A DNA stretch of 61,836 nt from Candidatus Ryanbacteria bacterium (GTDB lineage: Bacteria; Patescibacteriota; Minisyncoccia; Ryanbacterales; GWA2-47-10b): positions 1-61,836 of the forward strand of contig SICQ01000001.1 in assembly GCA_009691385.1 (NCBI GenBank), read 5' to 3'. Positions 1,700-14,348 of this stretch are shown piece after piece (position 1 is the first letter of the stretch; every line of letters starts with the position of its first letter). Made by a program: the position numbers and the translations under genes. Below the pieces are notes generated by a model. That model saw only the letters and a program-made list of their open reading frames with translations, searched no databases and was not told where the DNA came from.

Positions 1700-3229
1700 T
1701 CAATCCCAAGTCCTTCGATGCGGACTCTGCGGATCGGTCGCTGTCGCGTCAAGCGAGCTACTGCCGTTGTACTTGATCTGGAAGTGGAGGTGGATGCCGG
1801 TACTGTATTTACCGGAGCTTCCCATGACGCCTAGTACTTGCCCTCGGTACAGATATGCGCCCGGGTGGATGCCAGTCGCAAAAGAGGCTAGATGTAGATA
1901 GTAGGTGGTATATCCAGTACCGTTGTATGGTGAGTCGTGATCAATCCTTACGTAGTTTCCGTTCCCACTGTCAACTATTTTCCCAACCTCAATCACTTGA
2001 CCGCTAGCTGCGGCAAGGACGGGAACATCGTTTTCCGCGTTACCGCCATTTTCTGAGGTGTTGGCCGAAAAATCCAGTGAGAAATAAGCTTCATTCGGGT
2101 AATGAAAAGGGTCTCCAGATCTACCACAATGTTCTTTGCCACCACTCTCAACCGTGAGATACCAGTTCTTTCCACCAGGTAGCGGCAACTTCATGTCGGG
2201 TGGAGAGTAGATTGCGCCGTTGGTGAACCGAACATCGTCGAAGTACACGCGTGGGCCTGAAGTGGCACTGCTATTCATGACCACAAAGCTCACGACCGTG
2301 GCATTGCTCGCGCCGAGATCCGCAAGCGGGATGCTGACTTCGTACCAACGATTGGCGGCGACTTGCGTGTAGGGTGGGAGGTAGTCGCGTAGGTTACGCG
2401 TTCCCAAGTTTTGTGTCGCTACCCAAGGAATCCATTGACCACGCAGCTGCACTTGTAAGTCTCGTAGACCCATCCAACCGTCATCTGCTTTGACTGAAAA
2501 CGAGATGAGGTTTGTGCCGCCGGTGCTAATGCCGTACGGATGGTACAGGTAGAGGCCGCTCCACGGCTGGTATCGCGCGAACGACGCCATTAGACAAAAC
2601 GGGTCACTCGCGCATCCACTTTTCCAGAAAAGGTCGGTTTGTGTCCACGACCAGTTTTGGAAGCCGGGAGCCGGACCTTCGCGGTAGATGGTGCCGGGCG
2701 CGTTGATGCCGAGATTCTCGATTTTGACATCATCGATATGCACGGCGGGATAGGACGGGTCTTTGTTCATGATGATGACGTCGGTGATGCTGACGTTGTG
2801 CGCGCCGAGCGATGTGAGCGGTATGATGACCTTGACCCACTGTGCTACTGGCAAGGTTTCTCCGCTCAAGAAGTTGTTGAGGTCCGCCCATCCGAGGACA
2901 GAGCCGGCATGTCGGAGCTGTACTTGAAGCCGAACACCGGTTTGCACTGGTGCTCGTATCCAAAATGTCAGCGCGTCATGCCCGTGTGTGTTGATGGGGC
3001 CGTAGGAGTGCAGGTCGAGGCCGCTCCATTGGCCGGTGTAGCTGACATAGAGGCCCTTGCCGGTATCGCCATGTCGAGCATTGGTGACTGACACGACTGA
3101 TGCCCATGACCAGTTGCCCCAGCCACTCGCGATATCGTCGGTGTAGATATCGATCGCGCGGGCGGAGCCGACCAGACCGAAGAGAACGGTGAAGATCACT
3201 ACTAGAACACGAATTGTGAAGGTACACAT
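1700..3229 (-). CDS. secreted M23 (LytM-type) metallopeptidase with two N-terminal beta-sandwich, carbohydrate-binding-like modules
   Basis: Signal peptide MCTFTIRVLVVIFTVLFGLVGSARA. Two ~150-aa modules are built on the same plan (GWGNWSW...DDVKIEN and GFQNWSW...DDVRFTN). The C-terminal M23 core has SLDFSA, YYLHLASF and GIHLHFQI. Confidence 0.85.
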   Translation of the reverse strand: MCTFTIRVLVVIFTVLFGLVGSARAIDIYTDDIASGWGNWSWASVVSVTNARHGDTGKGLYVSYTGQWSGLDLHSYGPINTHGHDALTFWIRAPVQTGVRLQVQLRHAGSVLGWADLNNFLSGETLPVAQWVKVIIPLTSLGAHNVSITDVIIMNKDPSYPAVHIDDVKIENLGINAPGTIYREGPAPGFQNWSWTQTDLFWKSGCASDPFCLMASFARYQPWSGLYLYHPYGISTGGTNLISFSVKADDGWMGLRDLQVQLRGQWIPWVATQNLGTRNLRDYLPPYTQVAANRWYEVSIPLADLGASNATVVSFVVMNSSATSGPRVYFDDVRFTNGAIYSPPDMKLPLPGGKNWYLTVESGGKEHCGRSGDPFHYPNEAYFSLDFSANTSENGGNAENDVPVLAAASGQVIEVGKIVDSGNGNYVRIDHDSPYNGTGYTTYYLHLASFATGIHPGAYLYRGQVLGVMGSSGKYSTGIHLHFQIKYNGSSSLDATATDPQSPHRRTWD

Positions 3230-6684: not shown

Positions 6685-8343
6685 ATGTTTGATTTTTTAA
6701 AAACGATAGGGGATTTAACTACGGTAAATCTCCCGTTATGGCATAAAATCACGATTATTGTGGTAAATGCCCTTACACTCGCTTTAGTTGCAACCGTACT
6801 TAATCATAATTCAATAAAGAAACGCATCACCCAGCTATTTCTTGGTTTGGGGGTTTTCATGTTTCTTTGGGTTGATTTTGCTTACTTCGCAAGACTTGTG
6901 GGATCTTCCAATACGGAAGTTTCTCTACTCTTCTTAAGGATCGCGTGGACTGCTACTCCGCTCTTTTTCTGCTTCGTATATTTAACAACCATATATATTG
7001 TTGAGCGCAAACAACGTGATGTTTTTGTATACGGGGTCATCTCTCTTGCCTTTACTCTTGCTTTGGTGACTTGGTTCACAAATTATATTGTTGCCGGCGT
7101 AAGCTTCGTTGGTATCAATCTAGATATCGATTATGGAAAAGGTTTCTTTGGATTTTTATTTGGAATTTTAATAATTATGTGTGCAACACTTTTTCCATTA
7201 GTCCAGGGTGGAAAAAATGTTCGATTGAAACGGAACACATCCATATTTCTTGGAGGAGTAAGCATTTTTTATGTCAACAATCTTATATTTAATATTACCC
7301 TACCGGCTGTTTTTAATATTACGCATCTTTATTTTTTTGGTGATTACTCACTTCTTATCGTTATAGCAGTTACTGCCTATCTGATTTTACAGAAAGGATT
7401 TTTGGATATAAGGGTATTTTCCGCGGAATTATTTGTTTTTGCCTTGTGGGCCTTTATTTTATTAAGAATGACAATCGCGACCAACAACCAAGAGCGCCTT
7501 ATCAGTCTTGGGATGCTTGGCGCTGCAATTACGATAGGATTATTTCTGCTTAGGAGCATAGATAAAGAAGTTGAGTTGCGGAAAAAAATAGAATTACTCG
7601 CTGCTGATCTTGAAGTCGCCAATGCTGATCTCAAACGGCTTGATGAGGCCAAGTCTGACTTTATCTCAATCGCATCACATCAGCTGCGCACGCCACTCTC
7701 GATCATCAAGGGATATATCTCCATGATGCGCGAGGGCACCTACGGTAAACTTGAGACAAAGATTCATGATCCTTTGGAAAAAGTGTATGTATCAAACGAA
7801 CGCTTGATCACCTTGGTCAATGATTTGCTCGACCTCTCACGCATGGAGCGTGGACGCATGCAGTTTGATATGAAGCCCGTGCATCTATTAGAGATTCTTG
7901 ACCCCATCGTCACTGATTTTCAGATCGTGGCAAAAAATAAAAAGATGGAACTTGTGTGGGAAAAAGATTTTAAGACCGATGCGATGAGCGGTGATGTAAA
8001 CAAACTCCGCCAAGTAGCCCTCAACCTTGTAGATAATGCATTTAAATATACACCGTCGGGAAAGGTGGTAGTGAAGCTCGCACAAGAAGGCGATGCTATC
8101 AGATTTTCGGTCACTGACACAGGGCCGGGTTTGAGTGAGGAAGAATCGCGCAAGCTTTTCAAAAAATTTGTCCGCGGCAAAGAACAAAAGGCGACTCATA
8201 CCGAAGGCCTTGGCCTCGGGCTCTATGTAGCCAAACTCATCGCTGAAGCCCATGGTGGCTCCATCGGCGCCACCTCACCAGGCAAAGGCAAAGGCAGTAC
8301 TTTCTTTATGCTGCTACCGCTTGAAGCAGAGAAAAAGAAATAA
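6685..8343 (+). CDS. sensor histidine kinase with a multi-pass membrane N-terminal domain
   Basis: About 7-8 N-terminal TM helices, then a coiled coil. H-box SDFISIASHQLRTPLS, N-box LVDNAFKYT, G-boxes DTGPGL and GLGLGLYV. Confidence 0.9.
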   Translation: MFDFLKTIGDLTTVNLPLWHKITIIVVNALTLALVATVLNHNSIKKRITQLFLGLGVFMFLWVDFAYFARLVGSSNTEVSLLFLRIAWTATPLFFCFVYLTTIYIVERKQRDVFVYGVISLAFTLALVTWFTNYIVAGVSFVGINLDIDYGKGFFGFLFGILIIMCATLFPLVQGGKNVRLKRNTSIFLGGVSIFYVNNLIFNITLPAVFNITHLYFFGDYSLLIVIAVTAYLILQKGFLDIRVFSAELFVFALWAFILLRMTIATNNQERLISLGMLGAAITIGLFLLRSIDKEVELRKKIELLAADLEVANADLKRLDEAKSDFISIASHQLRTPLSIIKGYISMMREGTYGKLETKIHDPLEKVYVSNERLITLVNDLLDLSRMERGRMQFDMKPVHLLEILDPIVTDFQIVAKNKKMELVWEKDFKTDAMSGDVNKLRQVALNLVDNAFKYTPSGKVVVKLAQEGDAIRFSVTDTGPGLSEEESRKLFKKFVRGKEQKATHTEGLGLGLYVAKLIAEAHGGSIGATSPGKGKGSTFFMLLPLEAEKKK

Positions 8344-8394
8344 CTATTAGTAAGGTTTACAAACCTTTAAGCGGGTACGGATTTTTGAGAGTAA

Positions 8395-8428
8395 AAGATA
8401 ATTTCTGCTAAGAAATTATCTTTTTTGT
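8395..8428 (+). terminator. rho-independent terminator
   Basis: 12-bp stem AAGATAATTTCT/AGAAATTATCTT with loop GCTA and a T-run. Confidence 0.85.
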
Positions 8429-8524
8429 TTATACACAAGTAAACTCACACGCAATTACCATATAATAAACAGCAATAGGTCGCACTATTTATTTTATTTT
8501 TTTATTCAAAAAACTCTTACAGAT

Positions 8525-11500
8525 ATGAGTACACGATTGTTCATGAGATGGGGTTTGGTCGGTATCGTTGCTGCAGCCATGTTGGCGCCGCAACTTGCAT
8601 TGGCGGGTACCCCACGCCTTCAACTTAATAAATATAATTTTAACACTGGCGAAAGTGTCACACTTACGGTTACGGGCGCGGACGCAAATGCTGATGTGAT
8701 TGTGGTCTCATCAGACGCATCGGGTAGTTATTCAAACCCAGAGATGACGCTTGATCGTACTGATGCGAGTGGCCGATGGACATCTCCCGGGTATCCGATC
8801 ACACGAGATTTTCGTTCGAGCTGTGATTATGAAACATATGTCATGGTTAATGGCAAACAAAGTAACAAAGAAAGTTACTGCGTCACGCGCACGACAGAAA
8901 ATCCATCAGGCGTTCATGGGTATGTCGTAGAGACACAAAACTCATTTCAATATATTGAAACAACAGTCGAGATTGATGGAACCAAACGCGTATCTACATC
9001 GGGTGGATTTTATGAAACGCGCGACCTCGAACCAGGACGACACACCATCACCGTACAAACTCCACACTTCACTACGGAGCAAAGAGCTACTAACCCCGAA
9101 TATAATATATGTAGCGGAGGCGCCGACTGTGGTAGAAATTCTGGTGGATGGAGTAGCGGTGATACCGCAAGCTTCAATGTGACTGAAGGAAATATTGCGA
9201 CCGTATATTTTCGATTTCTTGTCACTAATCACAATGGAATTCCCACGCCTCCCGGCGGCACTGAACCTGAACCATGCAATGCGACCCATGGCTCATGTTC
9301 GGCAGGTCAGATAAATACTTATCGTTGTAGAAACGCAGTCAACTATCAGAAGTGTGAAAGAAAAGATGCTAACAATGATGGTTTTGCTATCTACTGTTGG
9401 AATGCACCAAATCAATGTCCTGCAAATGCGTCTATCTGCACTGGCAGTGCGGGTAATAGTATCACTGATGACCCGAACAACCCCCACGACATCCCTGTGT
9501 GCACTAACGCTCTCCAAGGCCCCACACCATCTACTATCTATTCAGTGGGTGGACAAGTTGAGGTGACAGAAAATGGTGTCAATGTACGCAGTGCGCCAGC
9601 GGGCGGTATAGCGGGTACTCGCAACGCGGGAGCTCAAGGTACTATTGCTGCAAGTCCTGCAATCCCCGCAAGGCTTGACGGCGTGTGGCATCAATGGTGG
9701 AAAGTAAACTTTAGCAATTTAACAGGTTGGGTGACAGAAGGATTTTTGCGACCTGCAGGTAGTAGCGCTGGCAACTATGTAGACGCCGGTAATAATGTTT
9801 CGGGCACTTTCCCAAGTGGCGCCAGCAAGCTCTACAGCTATCTCAATGCGTCAGTGTATGTAAATGGTGCAAAGCGTGATGACATCCAAAACAATGGCTT
9901 TGTCATGTGGAGGGTAACTTCCAAAGATGGTGCTGCGTGTGGTGCTGACAATTGTGGCGTAGTCTTTGAACCAATACCAAACGGTAACCAAGCTCAAGAC
10001 CCAACCGCGGTATTTTCTAGCAAAGGAAGCTACCAGCTTCAGTTTTGCGCACCATTTATATTGCCGTGTGACACGATCACCGCTGACATTCGCCAAGGAG
10101 GTACTATCGACTGTGATCAGGACGTACAACAGAGGTATCTTGCTAGATGGTGTCCACCCGGCTTTAATCCTACTAGGGTATCATGGGGTACCAGCGGAGC
10201 TTTCCCTAGCAACCCATCGGGTCCCTATCACGCGTGCAATATCCGCAACCTTCCCGTTGGTGGTATCAACGCTGGCGGATGCAGTGGTAAATACAGTTGG
10301 CCCAATGGCGGTGATGATACTACAGCACGCACACCATCAACGCCTACCTTTAATGATGGAGCTGATGCATACGGCTATGCTCACATTGTAGCTGAGGCAT
10401 GGAATTCAAACTGGACACGCGCACTCAATCTCAATGGCATCCCGACACGATCAGGCCAATGGAATATTGCGGCGCGCTATATGGCACACGGTGTTAGGCA
10501 AGACGGCCCATATAAATGGCTGGGTATCCCCCCCGCGTATGCTGATTTTTTCCCAGAATCACACGCGAGTACCTATGTATCACCCGAAGCATTAGCATCA
10601 GGCCCCGGTCAGCTCCCGCTCTGCATGCAAGACTATAGTGTAAACGCTCAAGTATATGGTTATGCAAAAGGTTGGTGGGGTTTGCCGAGTGGTATGAACC
10701 CTGATGGCGCGCGTCCTGGTCGTCGTATACCACAAACTGGTAAATGCGTACCTGACTGGAGACATTGGCGAGCCAACATCAATCCAATCCCTCAATACAC
10801 CGGAGGCCCCGGCCCAAGCGCTGTAAGTGGTAATTGTGGAGGTCCTACCAGTACTGCTGATGAAGTAGTATGTGGATCCGCAGAAGATCAGTTTTACTGC
10901 ACCGCAAATAAAACAAGAGCCGCTATCGGCGAGGCAGTCACCTTTACTGCGTTTGGCGCAACACCACTCGAGTGGAACGCAAATATCGGTGCAACACCAC
11001 GCCAACAATCTGCCGGGCAATCGTTTACCACTACATGGAATTCAGTAAGCGGTTCAATGAACCAAACTGTGAGCTTTACGCATCGTACTGATGGTAGCGT
11101 CCAATCCGAAAGCTGTAGCGTATTGCTCTATGATCCAAATCCAGCGCCTCCTCCACCGCCACCAGCGCCCGTAGGTCCTCTGAATTGTTCGGGCGGTGAC
11201 GCGTCAGCAGGTACTGTGGCGGGCACGGTAACTCTCCGCGCGTTTGATGTGACCGGCGGTAGCTCAATGTCATTTGGTGTCTACCCCGTACGCAATGGTG
11301 TCCGTCAATACGAGCTTGCCAAGTGGCCGGGTGGCGTGCGTGTAGGTGCTTCAAATACTTTCCGCGGCACGCTAACAGCAGCACAACTCTCCGATGGAAA
11401 CTTTGGCAATGGCCGCTACGGTGTCAATATTTGGCTCTGGGGTAGGCCTGACGATGCGACTGATGACAGACGGTGTGCTACATATGATTTTGTAAAATCA

Positions 11501-12877
11501 GGCGATACTATTACGATTCCTACGCCGGACTTGCCCCCACCTCCTCCGCCAGCCGTAACACCTCCACCACCTCCTGTCGCGCCACCCCCACCAGCAGGGC
11601 CGTTGCCACCACCGTCATGTACTTTGACGCCGACTCCTGGTGGTACCTCAAAAGCAATCAACACTAGATTTGGCGTGACATGGGCCGCTACCAATGCTGA
11701 TTATATTTCAGTCGCAGGCCCCGGTTGGAGTGGCACAATTGATTGCGGACTTCATGATGACAACGGCGATGGTATAGGTGACCGGTTTGATCCAGTGTAT
11801 GCTACTCCGTATTCATGTCGCGCGGCATTCTTGCGTACTGCAAGCGGTGGTGGATATGATCTTGGTACGCAGGGCACGTGGGGCAACCTCTACATGCGTG
11901 AAGCAGGTAGCGCCAATGTAACTGCAACACCAAAACGCTATGACGGCGCTAGTGGCGCACCATGTGCGCTTACTATCACCACATCAGGAGGCGGCCCAAC
12001 CCCTCCACCTCCGCCTCCGCCGCCGGCTCCCACAGCACCTCGCTGTCGCCTCAATGGAACCCTTGGCAATTCGTCTGTTACAAAAACCGTAGGTGATCGA
12101 TTTGAAGTCCCTTGGGCATGGGAAAACGCTGATTATATCACCGTCTCAACTCCATGGGCTGGAACGGTTGATTGTGGCAAACGTGCTGATGGCACCTTTG
12201 ATCCAAATTACTTCCCGTACCCGTACAAGTGTTTTAGAGATTTCATGTCCTCTCCAACTCCGTACGATCTTCGTTCAACGGGGCAGTGGGGCAATCTCTA
12301 TATGCGTGAAGCGGGTACCGCGCGCGTAACCATCACACCAAAGCGCAATGACGGGACTACGGGCGCATCATGTACTCTCACCATTACTGGCACTGGTACT
12401 CTCGTAGCGCCACCCCCACCACCCGTAGCGCCTCCGCCGCCTCCAGCGGCAGCGCAAGCACCAACATATTATAACCATGAATGTTCGGTCACTAGCGTCA
12501 CACAGCTCGGTGGTGGTCGCGTCAAATTACGCGTCGTAGGCGGTACGGCATTGCCTGATTCTGTTGGTTTCTGGAATCTCTCACGGGGCGTCGGCACTGC
12601 TACATGGGTTGGTCGTGGAGTATGGACCACTATCAACTCAACTACCTATGATGTGACATTGAGTGCGGTAGATCACGCGAACACCTACGGCAGATATCAG
12701 GCAAGTTTCTGGAAGTGGGGTACAAGTGATGCGACAAATATCCTGTGCTCGGAAGCACAGTTTGATATCCCACGCCCTACTGCTGCTACAAGCGGTAGCG
12801 ATGTGAGCGCTCTTGCGGATACTCTGCAAGGCCTTCGCAGCATGCTATTGGGCTTACAGTCAGCTCTCGGGCAATAA
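8525..12877 (+). CDS. giant secreted modular protein (1450 aa) rich in Cys, Trp and Pro, with an SH3b-like domain and poly-proline linkers
   Basis: Signal peptide ...VAAAMLAPQLALAG. SH3b-like segment VNVRSAPAGG...WWKVNF..LTGWVTEGFL (about 9539-9752). Four poly-Pro linkers and duplicated modules. No membrane anchor or sortase motif seen at the C-terminus. Confidence 0.85.
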   Translation: MSTRLFMRWGLVGIVAAAMLAPQLALAGTPRLQLNKYNFNTGESVTLTVTGADANADVIVVSSDASGSYSNPEMTLDRTDASGRWTSPGYPITRDFRSSCDYETYVMVNGKQSNKESYCVTRTTENPSGVHGYVVETQNSFQYIETTVEIDGTKRVSTSGGFYETRDLEPGRHTITVQTPHFTTEQRATNPEYNICSGGADCGRNSGGWSSGDTASFNVTEGNIATVYFRFLVTNHNGIPTPPGGTEPEPCNATHGSCSAGQINTYRCRNAVNYQKCERKDANNDGFAIYCWNAPNQCPANASICTGSAGNSITDDPNNPHDIPVCTNALQGPTPSTIYSVGGQVEVTENGVNVRSAPAGGIAGTRNAGAQGTIAASPAIPARLDGVWHQWWKVNFSNLTGWVTEGFLRPAGSSAGNYVDAGNNVSGTFPSGASKLYSYLNASVYVNGAKRDDIQNNGFVMWRVTSKDGAACGADNCGVVFEPIPNGNQAQDPTAVFSSKGSYQLQFCAPFILPCDTITADIRQGGTIDCDQDVQQRYLARWCPPGFNPTRVSWGTSGAFPSNPSGPYHACNIRNLPVGGINAGGCSGKYSWPNGGDDTTARTPSTPTFNDGADAYGYAHIVAEAWNSNWTRALNLNGIPTRSGQWNIAARYMAHGVRQDGPYKWLGIPPAYADFFPESHASTYVSPEALASGPGQLPLCMQDYSVNAQVYGYAKGWWGLPSGMNPDGARPGRRIPQTGKCVPDWRHWRANINPIPQYTGGPGPSAVSGNCGGPTSTADEVVCGSAEDQFYCTANKTRAAIGEAVTFTAFGATPLEWNANIGATPRQQSAGQSFTTTWNSVSGSMNQTVSFTHRTDGSVQSESCSVLLYDPNPAPPPPPPAPVGPLNCSGGDASAGTVAGTVTLRAFDVTGGSSMSFGVYPVRNGVRQYELAKWPGGVRVGASNTFRGTLTAAQLSDGNFGNGRYGVNIWLWGRPDDATDDRRCATYDFVKSGDTITIPTPDLPPPPPPAVTPPPPPVAPPPPAGPLPPPSCTLTPTPGGTSKAINTRFGVTWAATNADYISVAGPGWSGTIDCGLHDDNGDGIGDRFDPVYATPYSCRAAFLRTASGGGYDLGTQGTWGNLYMREAGSANVTATPKRYDGASGAPCALTITTSGGGPTPPPPPPPPAPTAPRCRLNGTLGNSSVTKTVGDRFEVPWAWENADYITVSTPWAGTVDCGKRADGTFDPNYFPYPYKCFRDFMSSPTPYDLRSTGQWGNLYMREAGTARVTITPKRNDGTTGASCTLTITGTGTLVAPPPPPVAPPPPPAAAQAPTYYNHECSVTSVTQLGGGRVKLRVVGGTALPDSVGFWNLSRGVGTATWVGRGVWTTINSTTYDVTLSAVDHANTYGRYQASFWKWGTSDATNILCSEAQFDIPRPTAATSGSDVSALADTLQGLRSMLLGLQSALGQ
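11180..11518 (+). repeat. module B, copy 1 (in-frame protein repeat)
   Basis: LNCSGG...NGRYGVNIWLWGRPDDATDDRRCATYDF shares the GRY..W.WG..DAT...C...FD core with copy 2. Bounded by poly-Pro linkers 11138-11179 and 11519-11614. Confidence 0.6.
11615..11995 (+). repeat. module A, copy 1 (in-frame protein repeat)
   Basis: SCTLTPTPGG...NADYISV...DCG...WGNLYMREAGSANVTATPKRYDGASGAPCALTIT aligns along its length with copy 2. Confidence 0.8.
12041..12409 (+). repeat. module A, copy 2 (in-frame protein repeat)
   Basis: RCRLNGTLGN...NADYITV...DCG...WGNLYMREAGTARVTITPKRNDGTTGASCTLTIT. Bounded by poly-Pro linkers 11996-12040 and 12410-12445. Confidence 0.8.
12467..12772 (+). repeat. module B, copy 2 (in-frame protein repeat)
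   Basis: YYNHECSV...YGRYQASFWKWGTSDATNILCSEAQFDIP is distantly related to copy 1. Confidence 0.6.
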
Positions 12878-12898
12878 TTTCCTTTTGGCGCAGGCACC

Positions 12899-12930
12899 AA
12901 AACCCCCGCACTATGCGGGGGTTTTGTTTC
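12899..12930 (+). terminator. rho-independent terminator
   Basis: AAAACCCCCGC-ACTAT-GCGGGGGTTTTGTTTC: a 7-bp GC stem flanked by A and T runs. Confidence 0.8.
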
Positions 12931-12947
12931 TTGGTATATTAAAATCT

Positions 12948-14348
12948 ATGGAAAAGCGGATTCATATTGTAGATACTCCAAATCATGTAGGCCGAGAAGT
13001 TGAGCTCGCCGGTTGGGTTGATGTACGCCGTGACCATGGCAAGCTTATTTTCATTGATCTCCGCGATGAATCTGGCGTAGTGCAGATGGTAGTGCCGCCA
13101 GACAACAAAGATTTGCATGATACTGCCGACCAAGTACGCACCGAGTGGGTGATTGGTGTACAAGGCCTCGTCAAAGAGCGCCCCGCCAAAATGAAAAACG
13201 ATAAATTGCCAACAGGCGGCGTTGAAATTGAAGTCAAAGGTATCACCATACTAAACTCCGCAGAAACTCCGGTATTTGAATTGGCAGGTGATGGCTACGA
13301 AGTAAGTGAAGAAGTGCGCCTCAAATATCGCTATCTTGATCTGCGAAGAGCACGACTCCAGCACAATATCCGTTTGCGATCAACATTAGTAGACTCTATC
13401 CGCCAGTATCTTTTTGCAAAATCATTTGTCGAGATCGAAACGCCTTATCTGACGAAAGCCACTGCTGAGGGTTCACGCGACTTTTTAGTACCCTCACGCC
13501 TTCAGCAAGGTCAGTTCTACGCGCTCCCGCAAAGCCCGCAACAATATAAACAGCTCATCATGGCTTCTGGCTTTGAGCGATATTTTCAAATCGCCCGATG
13601 TTTTCGCGATGAAGACTTGCGTGCGGATAGGGGATTTGAACACACTCAACTTGATGTTGAGATGAGTTTTATAAAACAAGAAGATATACTTAGCACCGTA
13701 GAGCATATGATGATTGAGATCGCAGAAAAATTGGGCAAAAAAATAAAAGAAACACCGTTCCCACGCTTTACCTATGCTGAAGCTATGGAAAAATTTGGCG
13801 CGGATAAGTTCGATCTACGTACCGAAGAAGAAAAGAATGACGGCACGCTTGCATTTGCGTGGGTCACACACTTTCCATTTTTTGAACGCACCGAAAGTGG
13901 TGGGTGGACTTTTACCCACAACCCATTTTCAAATACGGTGCCTGAACATCGCGAAAAACTTTTGGCAGGTGAGATTGAGTCAATTATCGCCGATCAATAT
14001 GACCTCGTGCTCAACGGGTATGAAGCGGGTGGCGGTAGCATCCGTGCGCATGAGCCTGAAGTGCTTAAAAAAGTATTGGGGGTGATGGGCTTTGGTGATG
14101 AAAAGATTGAACGCGAATATGGTCACATGTTAGAAGCGTTTCGCCGTGGCACGCCTCCACATGGCGGCATCGCGCTCGGCATTGATCGCCTCACTATGTG
14201 TTTTGCAGGCGAGACAGCGCTCCGCGAAGTACAGGCATTTCCTATGACAGCTAGCGGCAAAACATCGGTGATGGACGCACCTACCGATGTATCGCCTGAA
14301 CAACTTCTCGAGTTTGGAATTCAAATCAAGAAAAAACCCGCCGCGTAG
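12948..14348 (+). CDS. aspS: aspartyl-tRNA synthetase, bacterial type but lacking the GAD insertion domain
   Basis: OB-fold N-terminus GWVDVRRDHGKLIFIDLRD. QSPQQYKQLIM and motif 2 FRDEDLRADRGFEHTQLDVEMSF. Motif 3 GIALGIDRL. The ATG at 12948 follows the terminator, so the 12813 ORF extension is rejected. Confidence 0.9.
   Translation: MEKRIHIVDTPNHVGREVELAGWVDVRRDHGKLIFIDLRDESGVVQMVVPPDNKDLHDTADQVRTEWVIGVQGLVKERPAKMKNDKLPTGGVEIEVKGITILNSAETPVFELAGDGYEVSEEVRLKYRYLDLRRARLQHNIRLRSTLVDSIRQYLFAKSFVEIETPYLTKATAEGSRDFLVPSRLQQGQFYALPQSPQQYKQLIMASGFERYFQIARCFRDEDLRADRGFEHTQLDVEMSFIKQEDILSTVEHMMIEIAEKLGKKIKETPFPRFTYAEAMEKFGADKFDLRTEEEKNDGTLAFAWVTHFPFFERTESGGWTFTHNPFSNTVPEHREKLLAGEIESIIADQYDLVLNGYEAGGGSIRAHEPEVLKKVLGVMGFGDEKIEREYGHMLEAFRRGTPPHGGIALGIDRLTMCFAGETALREVQAFPMTASGKTSVMDAPTDVSPEQLLEFGIQIKKKPAA

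What the first reader, a model, noticed from the sequence alone, without database searches (positions are those of the whole stretch)
8525..12877. 1450-aa secreted Cys/Trp/Pro-rich modular protein without recognisable anchor or enzymatic domain
This is the largest gene in the window. It is GC-rich (57% in a sampled line) and sits between two strong terminators as a monocistronic unit. It contains:
- A signal peptide.
- An Ig or carboxypeptidase-regulatory-like stretch (GVHGYVVETQ...GRHTITVQTP).
- An SH3b-like cell-wall-binding segment (9539-9752).
- A roughly 500-aa region dense in Cys, Trp and Gly (WCPPGFNPTRVSWGTSG..., GWWGLPSGMNPDG...) that I cannot assign.
- Four duplicated modules.

I saw no LPXTG motif, TM anchor, S-layer-homology motif or catalytic motif. 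In a reduced genome, such an investment suggests a surface adhesin or host-interaction factor.
Basis: partly seen in the sequence, partly recalled or inferred. Interest (0 to 1): 0.6.

Follow-up and report, generated by a model that had tools for sequence, protein, structure and literature searches.

The report
Modular surface protein with orphan domain
This is an intact, conserved gene for a 150-kDa secreted, beads-on-a-string surface protein of an ultra-small (Patescibacteria) groundwater bacterium; it carries a cell-wall-binding SH3b module, a very rare 260-residue domain that matches no known family or fold, and an undescribed C-terminal helical tag that may replace the 'missing' anchor.

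Summary
The 1450-aa ORF (8525-12877, +) is real. Independent contigs cover it without differences, it is syntenic in close relatives, and it is under purifying selection (dN/dS about 0.1).

Architecture, N to C:
- Sec signal peptide
- N-terminal beta domain
- transthyretin/CarboxypepD_reg-like domain
- 8-Cys module
- SH3b
- PKD-like domain
- orphan alpha-rich domain (aa 526-783)
- beta domain
- four beta-sandwich modules (A-B-B-A) joined by poly-proline linkers
- a 25-residue amphipathic helix at the extreme C-terminus

The orphan domain has only 8 credible relatives among 1.84 billion cluster representatives. It has no Pfam, NCBIfam, PHROG or PDB-sequence match and no Foldseek hit, despite a pLDDT-81 model. 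A motif resembling lytic transglycosylase motif I failed a profile-profile test. One robust homologue is a membrane-anchored phage protein.

The C-terminal helix has a heptad Leu pattern. It recurs at the extreme C-terminus of other modular secreted Patescibacteria proteins, including one that lacks the orphan domain, so it is a portable tag.

Best reading: a surface-displayed stalked protein that engages another cell's wall. Whether the orphan head binds or cleaves is open. I class it as a new variant of a known kind; function is untested.

The parts
8394..8432 (+). Terminator-like hairpin (perfect 13-bp A+T-rich stem, GCTA loop, T-run) that closes the upstream histidine-kinase gene
   Evidence: Read directly. 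The scanner did not flag it because the stem has fewer than 3 G-C pairs.
8525..8605 (+). Sec-type signal peptide, aa 1-27 (basic n-region, hydrophobic core, ALA|G cleavage motif)
   Evidence: this is the only Kyte-Doolittle hydrophobic window in the protein. The N-terminus is conserved in orthologues.
8606..8899 (+). N-terminal beta-type module, aa 28-125. It is shared with P0006, P0008, P0009 and P0010.
   Evidence: Iterative search. There is no Pfam match. It is the fastest-evolving part of the protein (dN/dS about 0.2).
8900..9244 (+). Transthyretin-like / CarboxypepD_reg-like beta-sandwich, aa 126-240
   Evidence: PF13620 E=9.5e-4 and DUF2846 E=4.5e-4, both below cut-off. The homologous module of P0010 hits SdrD_B.
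9245..9529 (+). 8-Cys module, aa 241-335. It is also present in P0009, P0010 and P0015.
   Evidence: No family match.
9530..9760 (+). SH3b (bacterial SH3_3-type) domain, aa 336-412
   Evidence: SH3_3 E=0.011, covering profile positions 2-53 of 54. An iterative search links it to the P0012 repeats that score SH3_3 at E=5.8e-16.
9761..10099 (+). PKD-like beta domain, aa 413-525. It precedes the orphan domain in every long family member.
   Evidence: Iterative search links it to the K319L-like PKD domain of P0007.
10100..10873 (+). Orphan alpha-rich, Cys-containing central domain, aa 526-783. The minimal conserved core is aa 576-691 (nt 10250-10597). The invariant Glu624 is at nt 10394-10396.
   Evidence: Rarity. 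Alignment and invariant residues. AF2 model, pLDDT 81. No Foldseek, PDB, Pfam or PHROG match. hhalign against SLT gave probability 0.1%.
10874..11134 (+). Beta domain that follows the orphan domain, aa 784-870 (weakly PKD-like). It is conserved after the central domain in P0006, P0007, P0008 and P0010.
   Evidence: PKD E=0.078.
11135..12769 (+). Stalk. It consists of four all-beta modules: A1 (11180-11494), B1 (11606-11974), B2 (12032-12394) and A2 (12470-12769). Four poly-proline linkers join them: 11135-11179, 11495-11605, 11975-12031 and 12395-12469.
   Evidence: Self-comparison. Module census. AF2 secondary structure and pLDDT. Foldseek hits only to generic tandem Ig/FN3/MG arrays.
12797..12874 (+). 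C-terminal amphipathic helix tag, aa 1425-1450 (SDVSALADTLQGLRSMLLGLQSALGQ). Hydrophobic residues follow a 4-3-4-3-4 heptad spacing.
   Evidence: AF2 predicts a helix at model residues 555-579. Its hydrophobic moment is in the 99.8th percentile within the protein. The same tag ends P0003/4/5, P0007, P0012, P0015, the L012 ORF and the L025 ORF.
12898..12926 (+). Intrinsic-terminator-like hairpin (13 pairs, 8 G-C) plus T-run. It lies between this gene and the aspS start (ATG 12948).

Best explanation
The gene encodes a protein of about 150 kDa (pI 5.7), rich in Cys, that is exported by Sec and displayed on the cell surface of a Patescibacteria (CPR) bacterium.

**Shown**
- The protein has a cleavable-type signal peptide and no membrane or sortase anchor.
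- The C-terminal 40% is a stalk of four beta-sandwich modules. Proline-rich linkers, predicted with low confidence, separate the modules.
- A conserved heptad-patterned amphipathic helix sits at the very end of the protein.
- The N-terminal 60% carries binding-type modules: a beta module, a transthyretin-like domain, an 8-Cys module, SH3b and a PKD-like domain.
- A very rare orphan domain follows these modules. Its only invariant charged residue is Glu624.

**Inferred**
- The C-terminal helix retains or oligomerises the protein at the cell surface. It could do so as a coiled coil, with itself or with a partner.
- The linkers and beta modules hold the N-terminal half away from the cell.
- SH3b binds peptidoglycan.
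- The SH3b-PKD-orphan unit is the working head. It recognises, and possibly cuts, a wall polymer of another cell. That cell would be the host, if this organism is an episymbiont like the cultivated Patescibacteria.

**Module turnover**
Modules are gained and lost by recombination between the repetitive linker-coding DNA.
For: **The gene is real and functional**
- Single contigs in two runs cover it with zero differences, and fragments from a second study also match.
- Orthologues of 72-80% identity sit in the same kinase / this gene / aspS / scpA / scpB / S11-peptidase / mraY neighbourhood.
- dN/dS is 0.08-0.13 overall and at most about 0.23 in any domain; only the 27-codon signal-peptide segment goes higher (0.62).

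**It is exported**
- It has a signal peptide and no other hydrophobic segment.
- Every long family member also starts with a signal peptide.

**Stalk**
- AF2 predicts all-beta modules (pLDDT mostly 65-90), low-confidence linkers and a terminal helix.
- Foldseek matches only tandem Ig/FN3/MG arrays, including an S-layer protein and a bacterial 'grappling hook' fibre.

**SH3b**
- Supported.
- SH3b lies directly next to the PKD-orphan unit in P0001, P0007, P0009, P0010 and P0012.

**The tag is portable**
- The same heptad helix ends six distinct proteins, one of which (P0015) lacks the orphan domain.
- In a pattern scan of metagenomes, all 5 family-like hits place the motif 20-24 residues before the stop codon; four of the five ORFs are long, and the L025 ORF is cut at the contig edge (26 residues visible).
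- The 13 unrelated hits were two repeated sequences inside short ORFs.

**Module turnover**
- A 12-nt direct repeat in the linker DNA flanks the Cys module that P0003 has and the window gene lacks.
- P0005 carries different modules in place of B2.

**Wider context**
Large extracellular proteins are an expected feature of CPR cell surfaces (PMC6851277).
Against: - There is no expression, localisation or binding evidence. No RNA run holds the sequence.
- The role of the C-terminal helix is inferred from its sequence pattern alone. It contains a conserved Gly and is only about three heptads long.
- SH3b could bind the cell's own wall, acting as the anchor, and not a partner's wall. That would reverse the orientation I propose.
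- The lifestyle of this organism is not known from these data.
- The family is extremely narrow: 2 of about 185,000 species genomes by pattern scan. It therefore cannot be a general CPR attachment device.
Confidence: 0.5

Rival explanations
1. The orphan central domain is a new kind of wall-cleaving (muralytic or glycan-cleaving) enzyme that uses Glu624 as a single acid/base. SH3b targets it to peptidoglycan. On this reading the protein is a surface-tethered tool for opening a host or prey wall, or for remodelling the cell's own wall.
For: - Glu624 is the only invariant charged residue among 12 diverse members. It lies at the C-terminal end of a predicted helix, in the motif (I/V)-x-E-A-x-N-(P/S)-N-W. 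As I recall lysozyme structures, that helix-end position is where lysozyme-type enzymes carry their catalytic Glu, and the motif resembles Slt70's E-S-A-W-N-P-K (sequence fetched).
- SH3b lies next to the domain in most architectures. SH3b beside the catalytic domain is, from general knowledge, the usual layout of wall hydrolases.
- The phage protein P0014 is a robust homologue: 83 bits, E about 2e-18 at library scale, against a profile built without it.
- P0014 carries the conserved core behind an N-terminal, Ala/Ser-rich signal-anchor. It is encoded a few genes upstream of TerS and TerL. That topology is what signal-anchored endolysins have.
- The window also holds a secreted M23 peptidase and wall-synthesis genes.
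Against: - There is no similarity to any known hydrolase. Pfam and PHROG find nothing even at E<=10 across all 12 members.
- The profile finds nothing in PDB sequences.
- Foldseek returns 0 PDB hits at E<=10 for a pLDDT-81 model.
- hhalign against a profile of five E. coli SLT domains gives probability 0.1%.
- No holin, spanin or endolysin was recognisable next to the phage homologue. Other phage membrane proteins share the same topology.
- P0011 has the domain but no signal peptide.
Confidence: 0.25
2. It is a structural envelope component (an S-layer-like or wall-associated scaffold) with no role in cell-cell interaction. SH3b pins it to the cell's own peptidoglycan, and the coiled-coil tag builds a lattice or oligomer.
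For: - Foldseek hits for the stalk include the Bacillus anthracis Sap S-layer assembly domain.
- The gene neighbourhood holds wall-synthesis genes: S11 carboxypeptidase, mraY and murD.
- The gene is a conserved single copy in close relatives.
Against: - There is no SLH or other S-layer family match.
- The protein has 38 Cys (2.6%). From general knowledge, S-layer proteins typically have almost none.
- The family is far too rare to be a basic envelope component.
- Module content changes even between orthologues of 80% identity. That is more typical of interaction proteins than of lattice proteins.
Confidence: 0.12
3. It is a released, unanchored extracellular protein that binds or degrades environmental polymers or detritus to scavenge nutrients.
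For: - It has a signal peptide but no proven anchor.
- It carries modules of carbohydrate-binding type, seen as weak CBM77 and CarboxypepD_reg hits.
- The organism lives in oligotrophic groundwater, according to sample names.
Against: - A rigid stalk plus a conserved terminal tag that is always at the extreme C-terminus points to retention or assembly.
- No recognisable polysaccharide-active catalytic domain is present.
Confidence: 0.1
4. It is a decaying or non-functional acquired gene.
For: GC content is slightly higher than in the rest of the window. The taxonomic range is very narrow.
Against: - The 4.35-kb frame is intact in the window and in the two full-length orthologues; P0005 is N-terminally truncated in the record.
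- dN/dS is about 0.1.
- Synteny is conserved.
- GC3 is below the genome GC, so the GC excess comes from amino-acid composition.
Confidence: 0.02

Closest known systems
Gram-positive modular surface adhesins (MSCRAMM / Sdr / Cna type, sortase-anchored)
   Same: Both have an N-terminal Sec signal and tandem Ig-like or transthyretin-like (SdrD-B-like) beta modules. Both have a Pro-rich region toward the C-terminus and a binding region toward the N-terminus.
   Different: This protein has no LPXTG motif, no C-terminal TM segment and no basic tail. It ends in an amphipathic helix instead. It is rich in Cys. It contains an orphan alpha-rich domain.
SH3b-targeted peptidoglycan hydrolases (lysostaphin/ALE-1, phage endolysins, NlpC/P60 proteins)
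   Same: An SH3b module lies next to a compact non-repeat domain. A homologue of that domain occurs in a phage behind a signal-anchor.
   Different: The neighbouring domain matches no known catalytic family by sequence, profile or fold. This protein is five to ten times larger and carries a stalk.
Family-1 lytic transglycosylases (Slt70/MltC/EmtA, Pfam SLT, GH23)
   Same: There is a local motif resemblance around a single conserved Glu at a helix end: E-A-W-N-(P/S)-N here, E-S-A-W-N-P-K in Slt70.
   Different: hhalign gives probability 0.1%. There is no SLT Pfam hit in any of 12 members and no Foldseek hit to any lysozyme-like structure. The GLMQ and AYNxG motifs are absent.
C-terminal amphipathic-helix membrane anchors of PBP5/PBP6-type DD-carboxypeptidases
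   Same: Both are Sec-exported proteins whose last 20-25 residues form a strongly amphipathic helix, with no TM segment.
   Different: The tag here has a narrow a/d heptad stripe of Leu/Ile. Its polar face is Gln/Ser/Glu/Lys and it has few aromatic or basic residues. It therefore looks like a short coiled coil and not like an in-plane membrane anchor.
Long fibrous contact proteins built of tandem Ig-like domains (e.g. GhpA 'grappling hook' of Aureispira; S-layer Sap)
   Same: The stalk model gives Foldseek matches to these tandem beta-sandwich arrays.
   Different: The matches are generic, with TM-scores of 0.11-0.15. There is no sequence relationship. This protein is much shorter and has poly-Pro spacers.

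Membership tests
Bacterial SH3 (Pfam SH3_3, PF08239) | HMM match at or above the gathering score (27 bits) | tested here: not met
   The score is 16.4 bits, E=0.011, although the match covers profile positions 2-53 of 54.
Bacterial SH3 (Pfam SH3_3, PF08239) | Homology to bona fide SH3_3 domains | tested here: met
   An iterative search joins aa 336-412 to the P0012 repeats. Those repeats score SH3_3 at 58.9 bits, E=5.8e-16.
Lytic transglycosylase family 1 (Pfam SLT / GH23) | Sequence or profile similarity to the SLT domain | tested here: not met
   No Pfam hit at E<=10 in 12 members. hhalign of A1 against five E. coli SLT domains gives probability 0.1%, E=0.53.
Lytic transglycosylase family 1 (Pfam SLT / GH23) | Lysozyme-like fold | tested here: not met
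Lytic transglycosylase family 1 (Pfam SLT / GH23) | Catalytic Glu at a helix end in an E-S motif, followed by GLMQ and AYNxG motifs | tested here: inconclusive
   An invariant Glu lies at the end of helix 96-107 in an E-A-x-N-P-N-W motif. No GLMQ or AYNxG counterpart is present.
Sortase-anchored (LPXTG) surface proteins | LPXTG-type motif followed by a hydrophobic segment and a basic tail at the C-terminus | tested here: not met
   The relaxed pattern gave only two matches, at aa 24 and aa 735, neither near the C-terminus. There is no hydrophobic window outside the signal peptide.
S-layer proteins with SLH domains | SLH (or other S-layer family) HMM match | tested here: not met
   No such hit in Pfam or NCBIfam.
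PKD domain | HMM match or homology to a recognised PKD domain | tested here: inconclusive
   aa 413-525 has no direct Pfam hit. An iterative search links it to the segment of P0007 (iE 1.3e-10) that scores K319L-like_PKD at 29.1 bits, above the 27-bit cut-off. aa 784-870 gives PKD E=0.078.
CarboxypepD_reg / transthyretin-like clan | HMM match at the gathering score | tested here: not met
   The score is 19.9 bits against a 32.3-bit cut-off (E=9.5e-4). The homologous P0010 module gives SdrD_B E=1.8e-4. This is consistent with the fold class but below threshold.
PBP5-type C-terminal amphipathic membrane anchor | Amphipathic helix at the extreme C-terminus of a Sec-exported protein | tested here: met
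   AF2 predicts a helix at aa 1425-1449. Its hydrophobic moment is in the 99.8th percentile within the protein.
PBP5-type C-terminal amphipathic membrane anchor | Broad hydrophobic face with aromatic residues and flanking basic residues; membrane binding | tested here: inconclusive
   The composition is Leu/Ile in a/d positions, with a Gln/Ser/Glu/Lys polar face and 0-1 aromatic residues. Membrane binding cannot be tested with these tools.
Coiled-coil oligomerisation element | Heptad (a/d) spacing of hydrophobic residues, conserved across homologues | tested here: met
   Four of the six tagged proteins place hydrophobic residues at positions 3, 7, 10, 14, 17 and 21; P0015 and the L025 ORF show the same 4-3-4-3-4 spacing in a shifted register.
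Coiled-coil oligomerisation element | Actual self-association or association with a partner | not testable with these tools
   No multimer prediction or experiment was available.

The most novel reading that the evidence does not exclude
The orphan domain (minimal core aa 576-691, invariant Glu624) is a previously unrecognised fold that acts on cell walls. It is shared between Patescibacteria surface proteins and a membrane-anchored phage protein. The protein would then be a stalked tool, held at the surface by a new C-terminal coiled-coil display tag, that an ultra-small bacterium uses to breach or grip the wall of its host cell.
Probability: 0.2. Interest if true: 0.8.

Novelty: new variant of a known kind. 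Interest (0 to 1): 0.5.

Why it matters
How ultra-small Patescibacteria recognise, hold and tap their host cells is largely unknown beyond type IV pili (PMC12206443, listed).

This protein family offers two concrete, testable parts that are absent from every domain library I searched:

- **The orphan domain.** It folds confidently, is Cys-rich (probably disulfide-bonded) and has one invariant Glu. It travels with SH3b wall-binding modules and also occurs in a phage.
- **The C-terminal helical tag.** It is short, portable, and shared by several otherwise different secreted proteins. It may be how these cells display proteins that lack an LPXTG or TM anchor.

If the domain proves to be wall-active, it would add a new muralytic family and a direct molecular handle on episymbiosis. 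If it is only a binding head, the finding is a well-described but ordinary lineage-specific adhesin.

Tried and rejected
1. **Lytic transglycosylase or lysozyme identity of the central domain.** The E-A-W-N-P-N motif prompted this idea. I rejected family membership on three results: no Pfam or PHROG hit, no Foldseek hit, and hhalign probability 0.1% against a profile of Slt70, EmtA, MltC, MltD and MltF.

2. **P0013 as a family member.** Rejected. It scores E=1.2 against the profile and consists of low-complexity repeats.

3. **Operon partners.** The distant members share no conserved neighbour. P0007 lies after a type IV pilus cluster, but P0010, P0012 and P0018 lie among housekeeping genes.

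4. **Phage lysis-cassette context for P0014 and P0016.** TerS, TerL and portal genes lie downstream, but no holin, endolysin or spanin is recognisable. All contigs end 130-540 bp upstream of the gene. Related pelagiphage genomes were uninformative. There are no relatives in INPHARED or IMG/VR.

5. **Census of the C-terminal tag.**
   - The alignment was too degenerate for the search for related loci.
   - A word-indexed search of the tail alone was too insensitive.
   - A back-translated pattern scan worked, but it is deliberately narrow.

6. **Foreign origin inferred from GC content.** Rejected, because GC3 is 41%.

7. **Positive selection.** None was seen at domain resolution.

8. **Paralogues in the window.** None were found.

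9. **Expression evidence.** No RNA runs were found.

Full report
**Observation**

The window holds an uninterrupted ORF at 8525-12877 (+) of 1450 codons, ending in TAA. It is the largest ORF on this 61.8-kb contig.

The assembly is sound:
- Single Logan contigs from two runs cover 8300-13000 with zero differences.
- Fragments from a second study also match.
- The only other contigs that touch the region do so over about 20 nt of CCN-repeat linker DNA.

The gene is bracketed by hairpin-plus-T-run structures:
- Upstream, a perfect 13-bp A+T-rich stem at 8394-8432 follows the kinase gene.
- Downstream, a 13-bp stem with 8 G-C pairs lies at 12898-12926, before the aspS start at 12948.

The 'GC-rich' remark holds only locally. 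The gene is 51.6% GC against 47.5% for the rest of the window, and its GC3 is 41%. The excess comes from Pro, Gly and Ala codons.

**Organism and conservation**

The closest proteins are three orthologues of 72-80% identity. NCBI names one of them as a hypothetical protein of a 'Patescibacteria group bacterium'.

The full-length orthologues lie in the same gene order in groundwater metagenome contigs (neighbours in the window confirmed):
- 7TM histidine kinase
- this gene
- aspS
- scpA
- scpB
- S11 DD-carboxypeptidase
- mraY
- amidohydrolase

Pairwise dN/dS is 0.08-0.13 over the whole gene and at most about 0.23 in any domain; only the 27-codon signal-peptide segment goes higher (0.62). Synonymous sites are near saturation.

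The protein diverges faster than AspRS, ScpA and MraY (88-95% identity). It diverges about as fast as the S11 peptidase, and more slowly than the kinase. This is therefore a functional gene that evolves moderately fast, not a decaying acquisition.

**Architecture**

Pfam and NCBIfam give nothing above their cut-offs for the whole protein. I cut the protein into modules and used the few relatives as stepping stones. The resulting map (coordinates):

| aa | Module | Evidence |
|---|---|---|
| 1-27 | Signal peptide; the only hydrophobic window | |
| 28-125 | N-terminal beta-type module shared across the family | |
| 126-240 | Transthyretin/CarboxypepD_reg-like; E=9.5e-4, below threshold; the P0010 counterpart hits SdrD_B | |
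| 241-335 | 8-Cys module | |
| 336-412 | SH3b; SH3_3 E=0.011 alone, but firmly linked to SH3_3 repeats that score E=5.8e-16 in P0012 | |
| 413-525 | PKD-like; linked to the K319L-like PKD domain of P0007 | |
| 526-783 | Orphan central domain | see next section |
| 784-870 | Beta domain, weakly PKD-like | |
| 871-1415 | A1, B1, B2 and A2 modules joined by four poly-Pro linkers | |
| 1425-1450 | Terminal helix | |

An AF2 model of aa 871-1450 gives these features:
- four all-beta modules with pLDDT mostly 65-90
- low-confidence linkers
- one 25-residue C-terminal helix

Foldseek matches this model only to generic tandem Ig/FN3/MG arrays: complement C3, fibronectin, the Sap S-layer protein and the GhpA fibre. 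TM-scores are 0.11-0.15.

There is no LPXTG motif, no C-terminal TM segment and no SLH domain.

**The orphan domain**

An exhaustive phmmer search with aa 520-795 against 1.84 billion cluster representatives returned 9 proteins. One of them, P0013, is spurious. A back-translated pattern scan of one genome for each of about 185,000 species found two loci: one labelled Patescibacteria, the other labelled only 'bacterium'.

A 12-member alignment (A1) shows 11 invariant positions. All of them fall within a minimal core, aa 576-691. Glu624 is the only invariant charged residue.

AF2 on this alignment gives mean pLDDT 81 and pTM 0.73. The model has an alpha-rich core and a confidently placed Pro/Gly-rich C-terminal meander. 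Glu624 sits at the end of helix 96-107.

Every search for a known relative came back empty:
- Foldseek found no PDB chain at E<=10 and nothing meaningful in BFVD.
- The profile found nothing significant among PDB sequences.
- None of the 12 members hits any Pfam or PHROG family, even at E<=10.

The motif around Glu624 (E-A-W-N-S/P-N-W) recalled motif I of family-1 lytic transglycosylases. To test this I fetched Slt70, EmtA, MltC, MltD and MltF from E. coli K-12 and aligned their SLT domains. I then ran hhalign against A1. The result was probability 0.1% and E=0.53. Membership in that family is not supported, and the motif remains a resemblance only.

**Family and context**

The long members are P0006-P0010 and P0012. 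All start with signal peptides and reuse the same kit in different orders: PKD-like domain, orphan domain, beta domain, SH3b repeats, the 8-Cys module, a small 'CANDWNSTNGG' Cys module, B modules and poly-Pro linkers.

SH3b directly abuts the PKD-orphan unit in five of the seven distinct architectures.

No operon partner is conserved.

Two short proteins carry the domain nearly alone. P0011 has no informative context.

P0014, and its near-identical relative P0016, are informative:
- Their contigs carry a small terminase, a large terminase and a portal gene three to five genes downstream, so this is phage DNA.
- The protein has an N-terminal Cys-rich stretch, then a basic patch, then an Ala/Ser-rich hydrophobic segment, followed by the conserved core including the Glu.
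- It scores 83 bits (E about 2e-18 at library scale) against a profile built without it.
- That topology is what signal-anchored endolysins have, but other phage membrane proteins share it.
- No holin, spanin or endolysin is recognisable nearby.

The phage link therefore supports an envelope-directed function but does not prove it.

**The C-terminal tag**

The last 25 residues are SDVSALADTLQGLRSMLLGLQSALGQ.
- AF2 predicts them as a helix.
- Their hydrophobic moment is in the 99.8th percentile of the protein.
- Leu/Ile/Met fall at positions 3, 7, 10, 14, 17 and 21, which is a heptad a/d stripe.

The same tail ends the following proteins:
- the orthologues
- P0007
- P0012
- P0015, a 1233-aa modular secreted protein next to P0009 that lacks the orphan domain
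- a paralogue on the P0007 contig (L012)
- a further ORF at a contig edge (L025)

In the metagenome pattern scan, all five family-like hits place the motif 20-24 residues before the stop codon; four of those ORFs are long, and the L025 ORF is cut at the contig edge. The other 13 hits are two unrelated repeated sequences inside short ORFs.

The tag is therefore a portable C-terminal element. Its composition (few aromatic or basic residues; a Gln/Ser/Glu/Lys polar face) looks more like a short coiled coil than like a PBP5-type in-plane membrane anchor. That is my inference.

**Module turnover**

The window protein lacks the roughly 60-residue Cys module that P0003 and P0004 carry between B1 and B2. 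In P0003 a 12-nt direct repeat (TCCACCTCCGCC) in the linker-coding DNA flanks that module, and the window gene is joined exactly at the repeat.

P0005 carries different modules in place of B2.

Between the window gene and P0003, dS drops to 0.3-0.56 in B1-B2, against about 1.2 elsewhere. This hints at recent exchange of that segment.

**Interpretation**

Shown:
- an exported, conserved, modular protein
- an SH3b module
- an orphan domain with a single invariant Glu and a phage homologue
- a beta-sandwich / poly-Pro stalk
- a portable terminal helix

Inferred:
- The helix retains or oligomerises the protein at the surface.
- The stalk projects the N-terminal half away from the cell.
- The SH3b-PKD-orphan unit engages a wall polymer of another cell.

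I put 0.5 on this surface-interaction reading as a whole. I put 0.25 on the more specific rival that the orphan domain is a new wall-cleaving enzyme. I give lower odds to a purely structural envelope role or to a released scavenging protein.

I saw it only after my own analysis. I could not confirm its 'endolysin-adjacent' remark on the phage contigs available here.

**Novelty**

Large extracellular proteins are expected in CPR genomes (PMC6851277), and the overall kind, a modular surface protein, is known. The new elements are the orphan domain, which has no family, no fold match and 8 credible relatives in 1.84 billion representatives, and the C-terminal tag. I class the finding as a new variant of a known kind. 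Its interest is moderate until function is tested.

Noticed in passing
L010:276-3974 (+): A second large secreted modular protein (P0015, 1233 aa) lies directly upstream of family member P0009. It has the 8-Cys module, SH3b repeats, poly-Pro linkers and the same C-terminal helical tag, but it lacks the orphan domain.
   Followed up: partly
L012:1-1101 (+): This is the C-terminal 366 aa of a paralogue on the same 535-kb contig as P0007. It has the end of a B module, the small 'CSNNWNSTNGG' Cys module, an SH3b domain and the tag ...ALANTLQGLRETLLGLQAALSQ*.
   Followed up: partly
window 11975-12031, compared with L001 (P0003 gene): A clean in-frame indel of about 186 nt (the small Cys module) is flanked in P0003 by a 12-nt direct repeat, TCCACCTCCGCC, in the poly-Pro-coding DNA. 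The linker repeats look like recombination or slippage sites for module loss or gain.
   Followed up: yes
window 11606-12394 (B1-B2), compared with L001: Synonymous divergence from the P0003 orthologue falls to 0.30-0.56 here, against about 1.2 in the rest of the gene. This suggests recent recombination of this segment between related populations.
   Followed up: partly
L035, L038-L041 (phage contigs with P0014/P0016): All five independent contigs end 130-540 bp upstream of the P0014/P0016 gene. This may mark a physical genome end or a terminal repeat. The gene would then be among the first on the phage genome, ahead of TerS, TerL and the portal gene.
   Followed up: no
L005:1-6531: The P0007 family member lies just downstream of a type IV pilus gene cluster (PilC-like T2SSF, PilM, N_methyl pilins). 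Other members do not share this arrangement.
   Followed up: partly
window 6685-8343: The upstream 7TM histidine kinase is only 58-76% identical to its syntenic orthologues, whereas AspRS and ScpA are 91-95% identical. It is the fastest-diverging gene of the neighbourhood.
   Followed up: no
window 12813-12950: The mechanical ORF list starts aspS at TTG 12813, which overlaps the end of the big gene and the terminator. The orthologues' length of 466 aa points to ATG 12948, downstream of the terminator hairpin.
   Followed up: partly
window 1700-3229 (-): A secreted M23 peptidase (PF01551, E=1.3e-18) with N-terminal extra modules lies 5 kb upstream. It is another wall-active exported protein on the same contig.
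   Followed up: no
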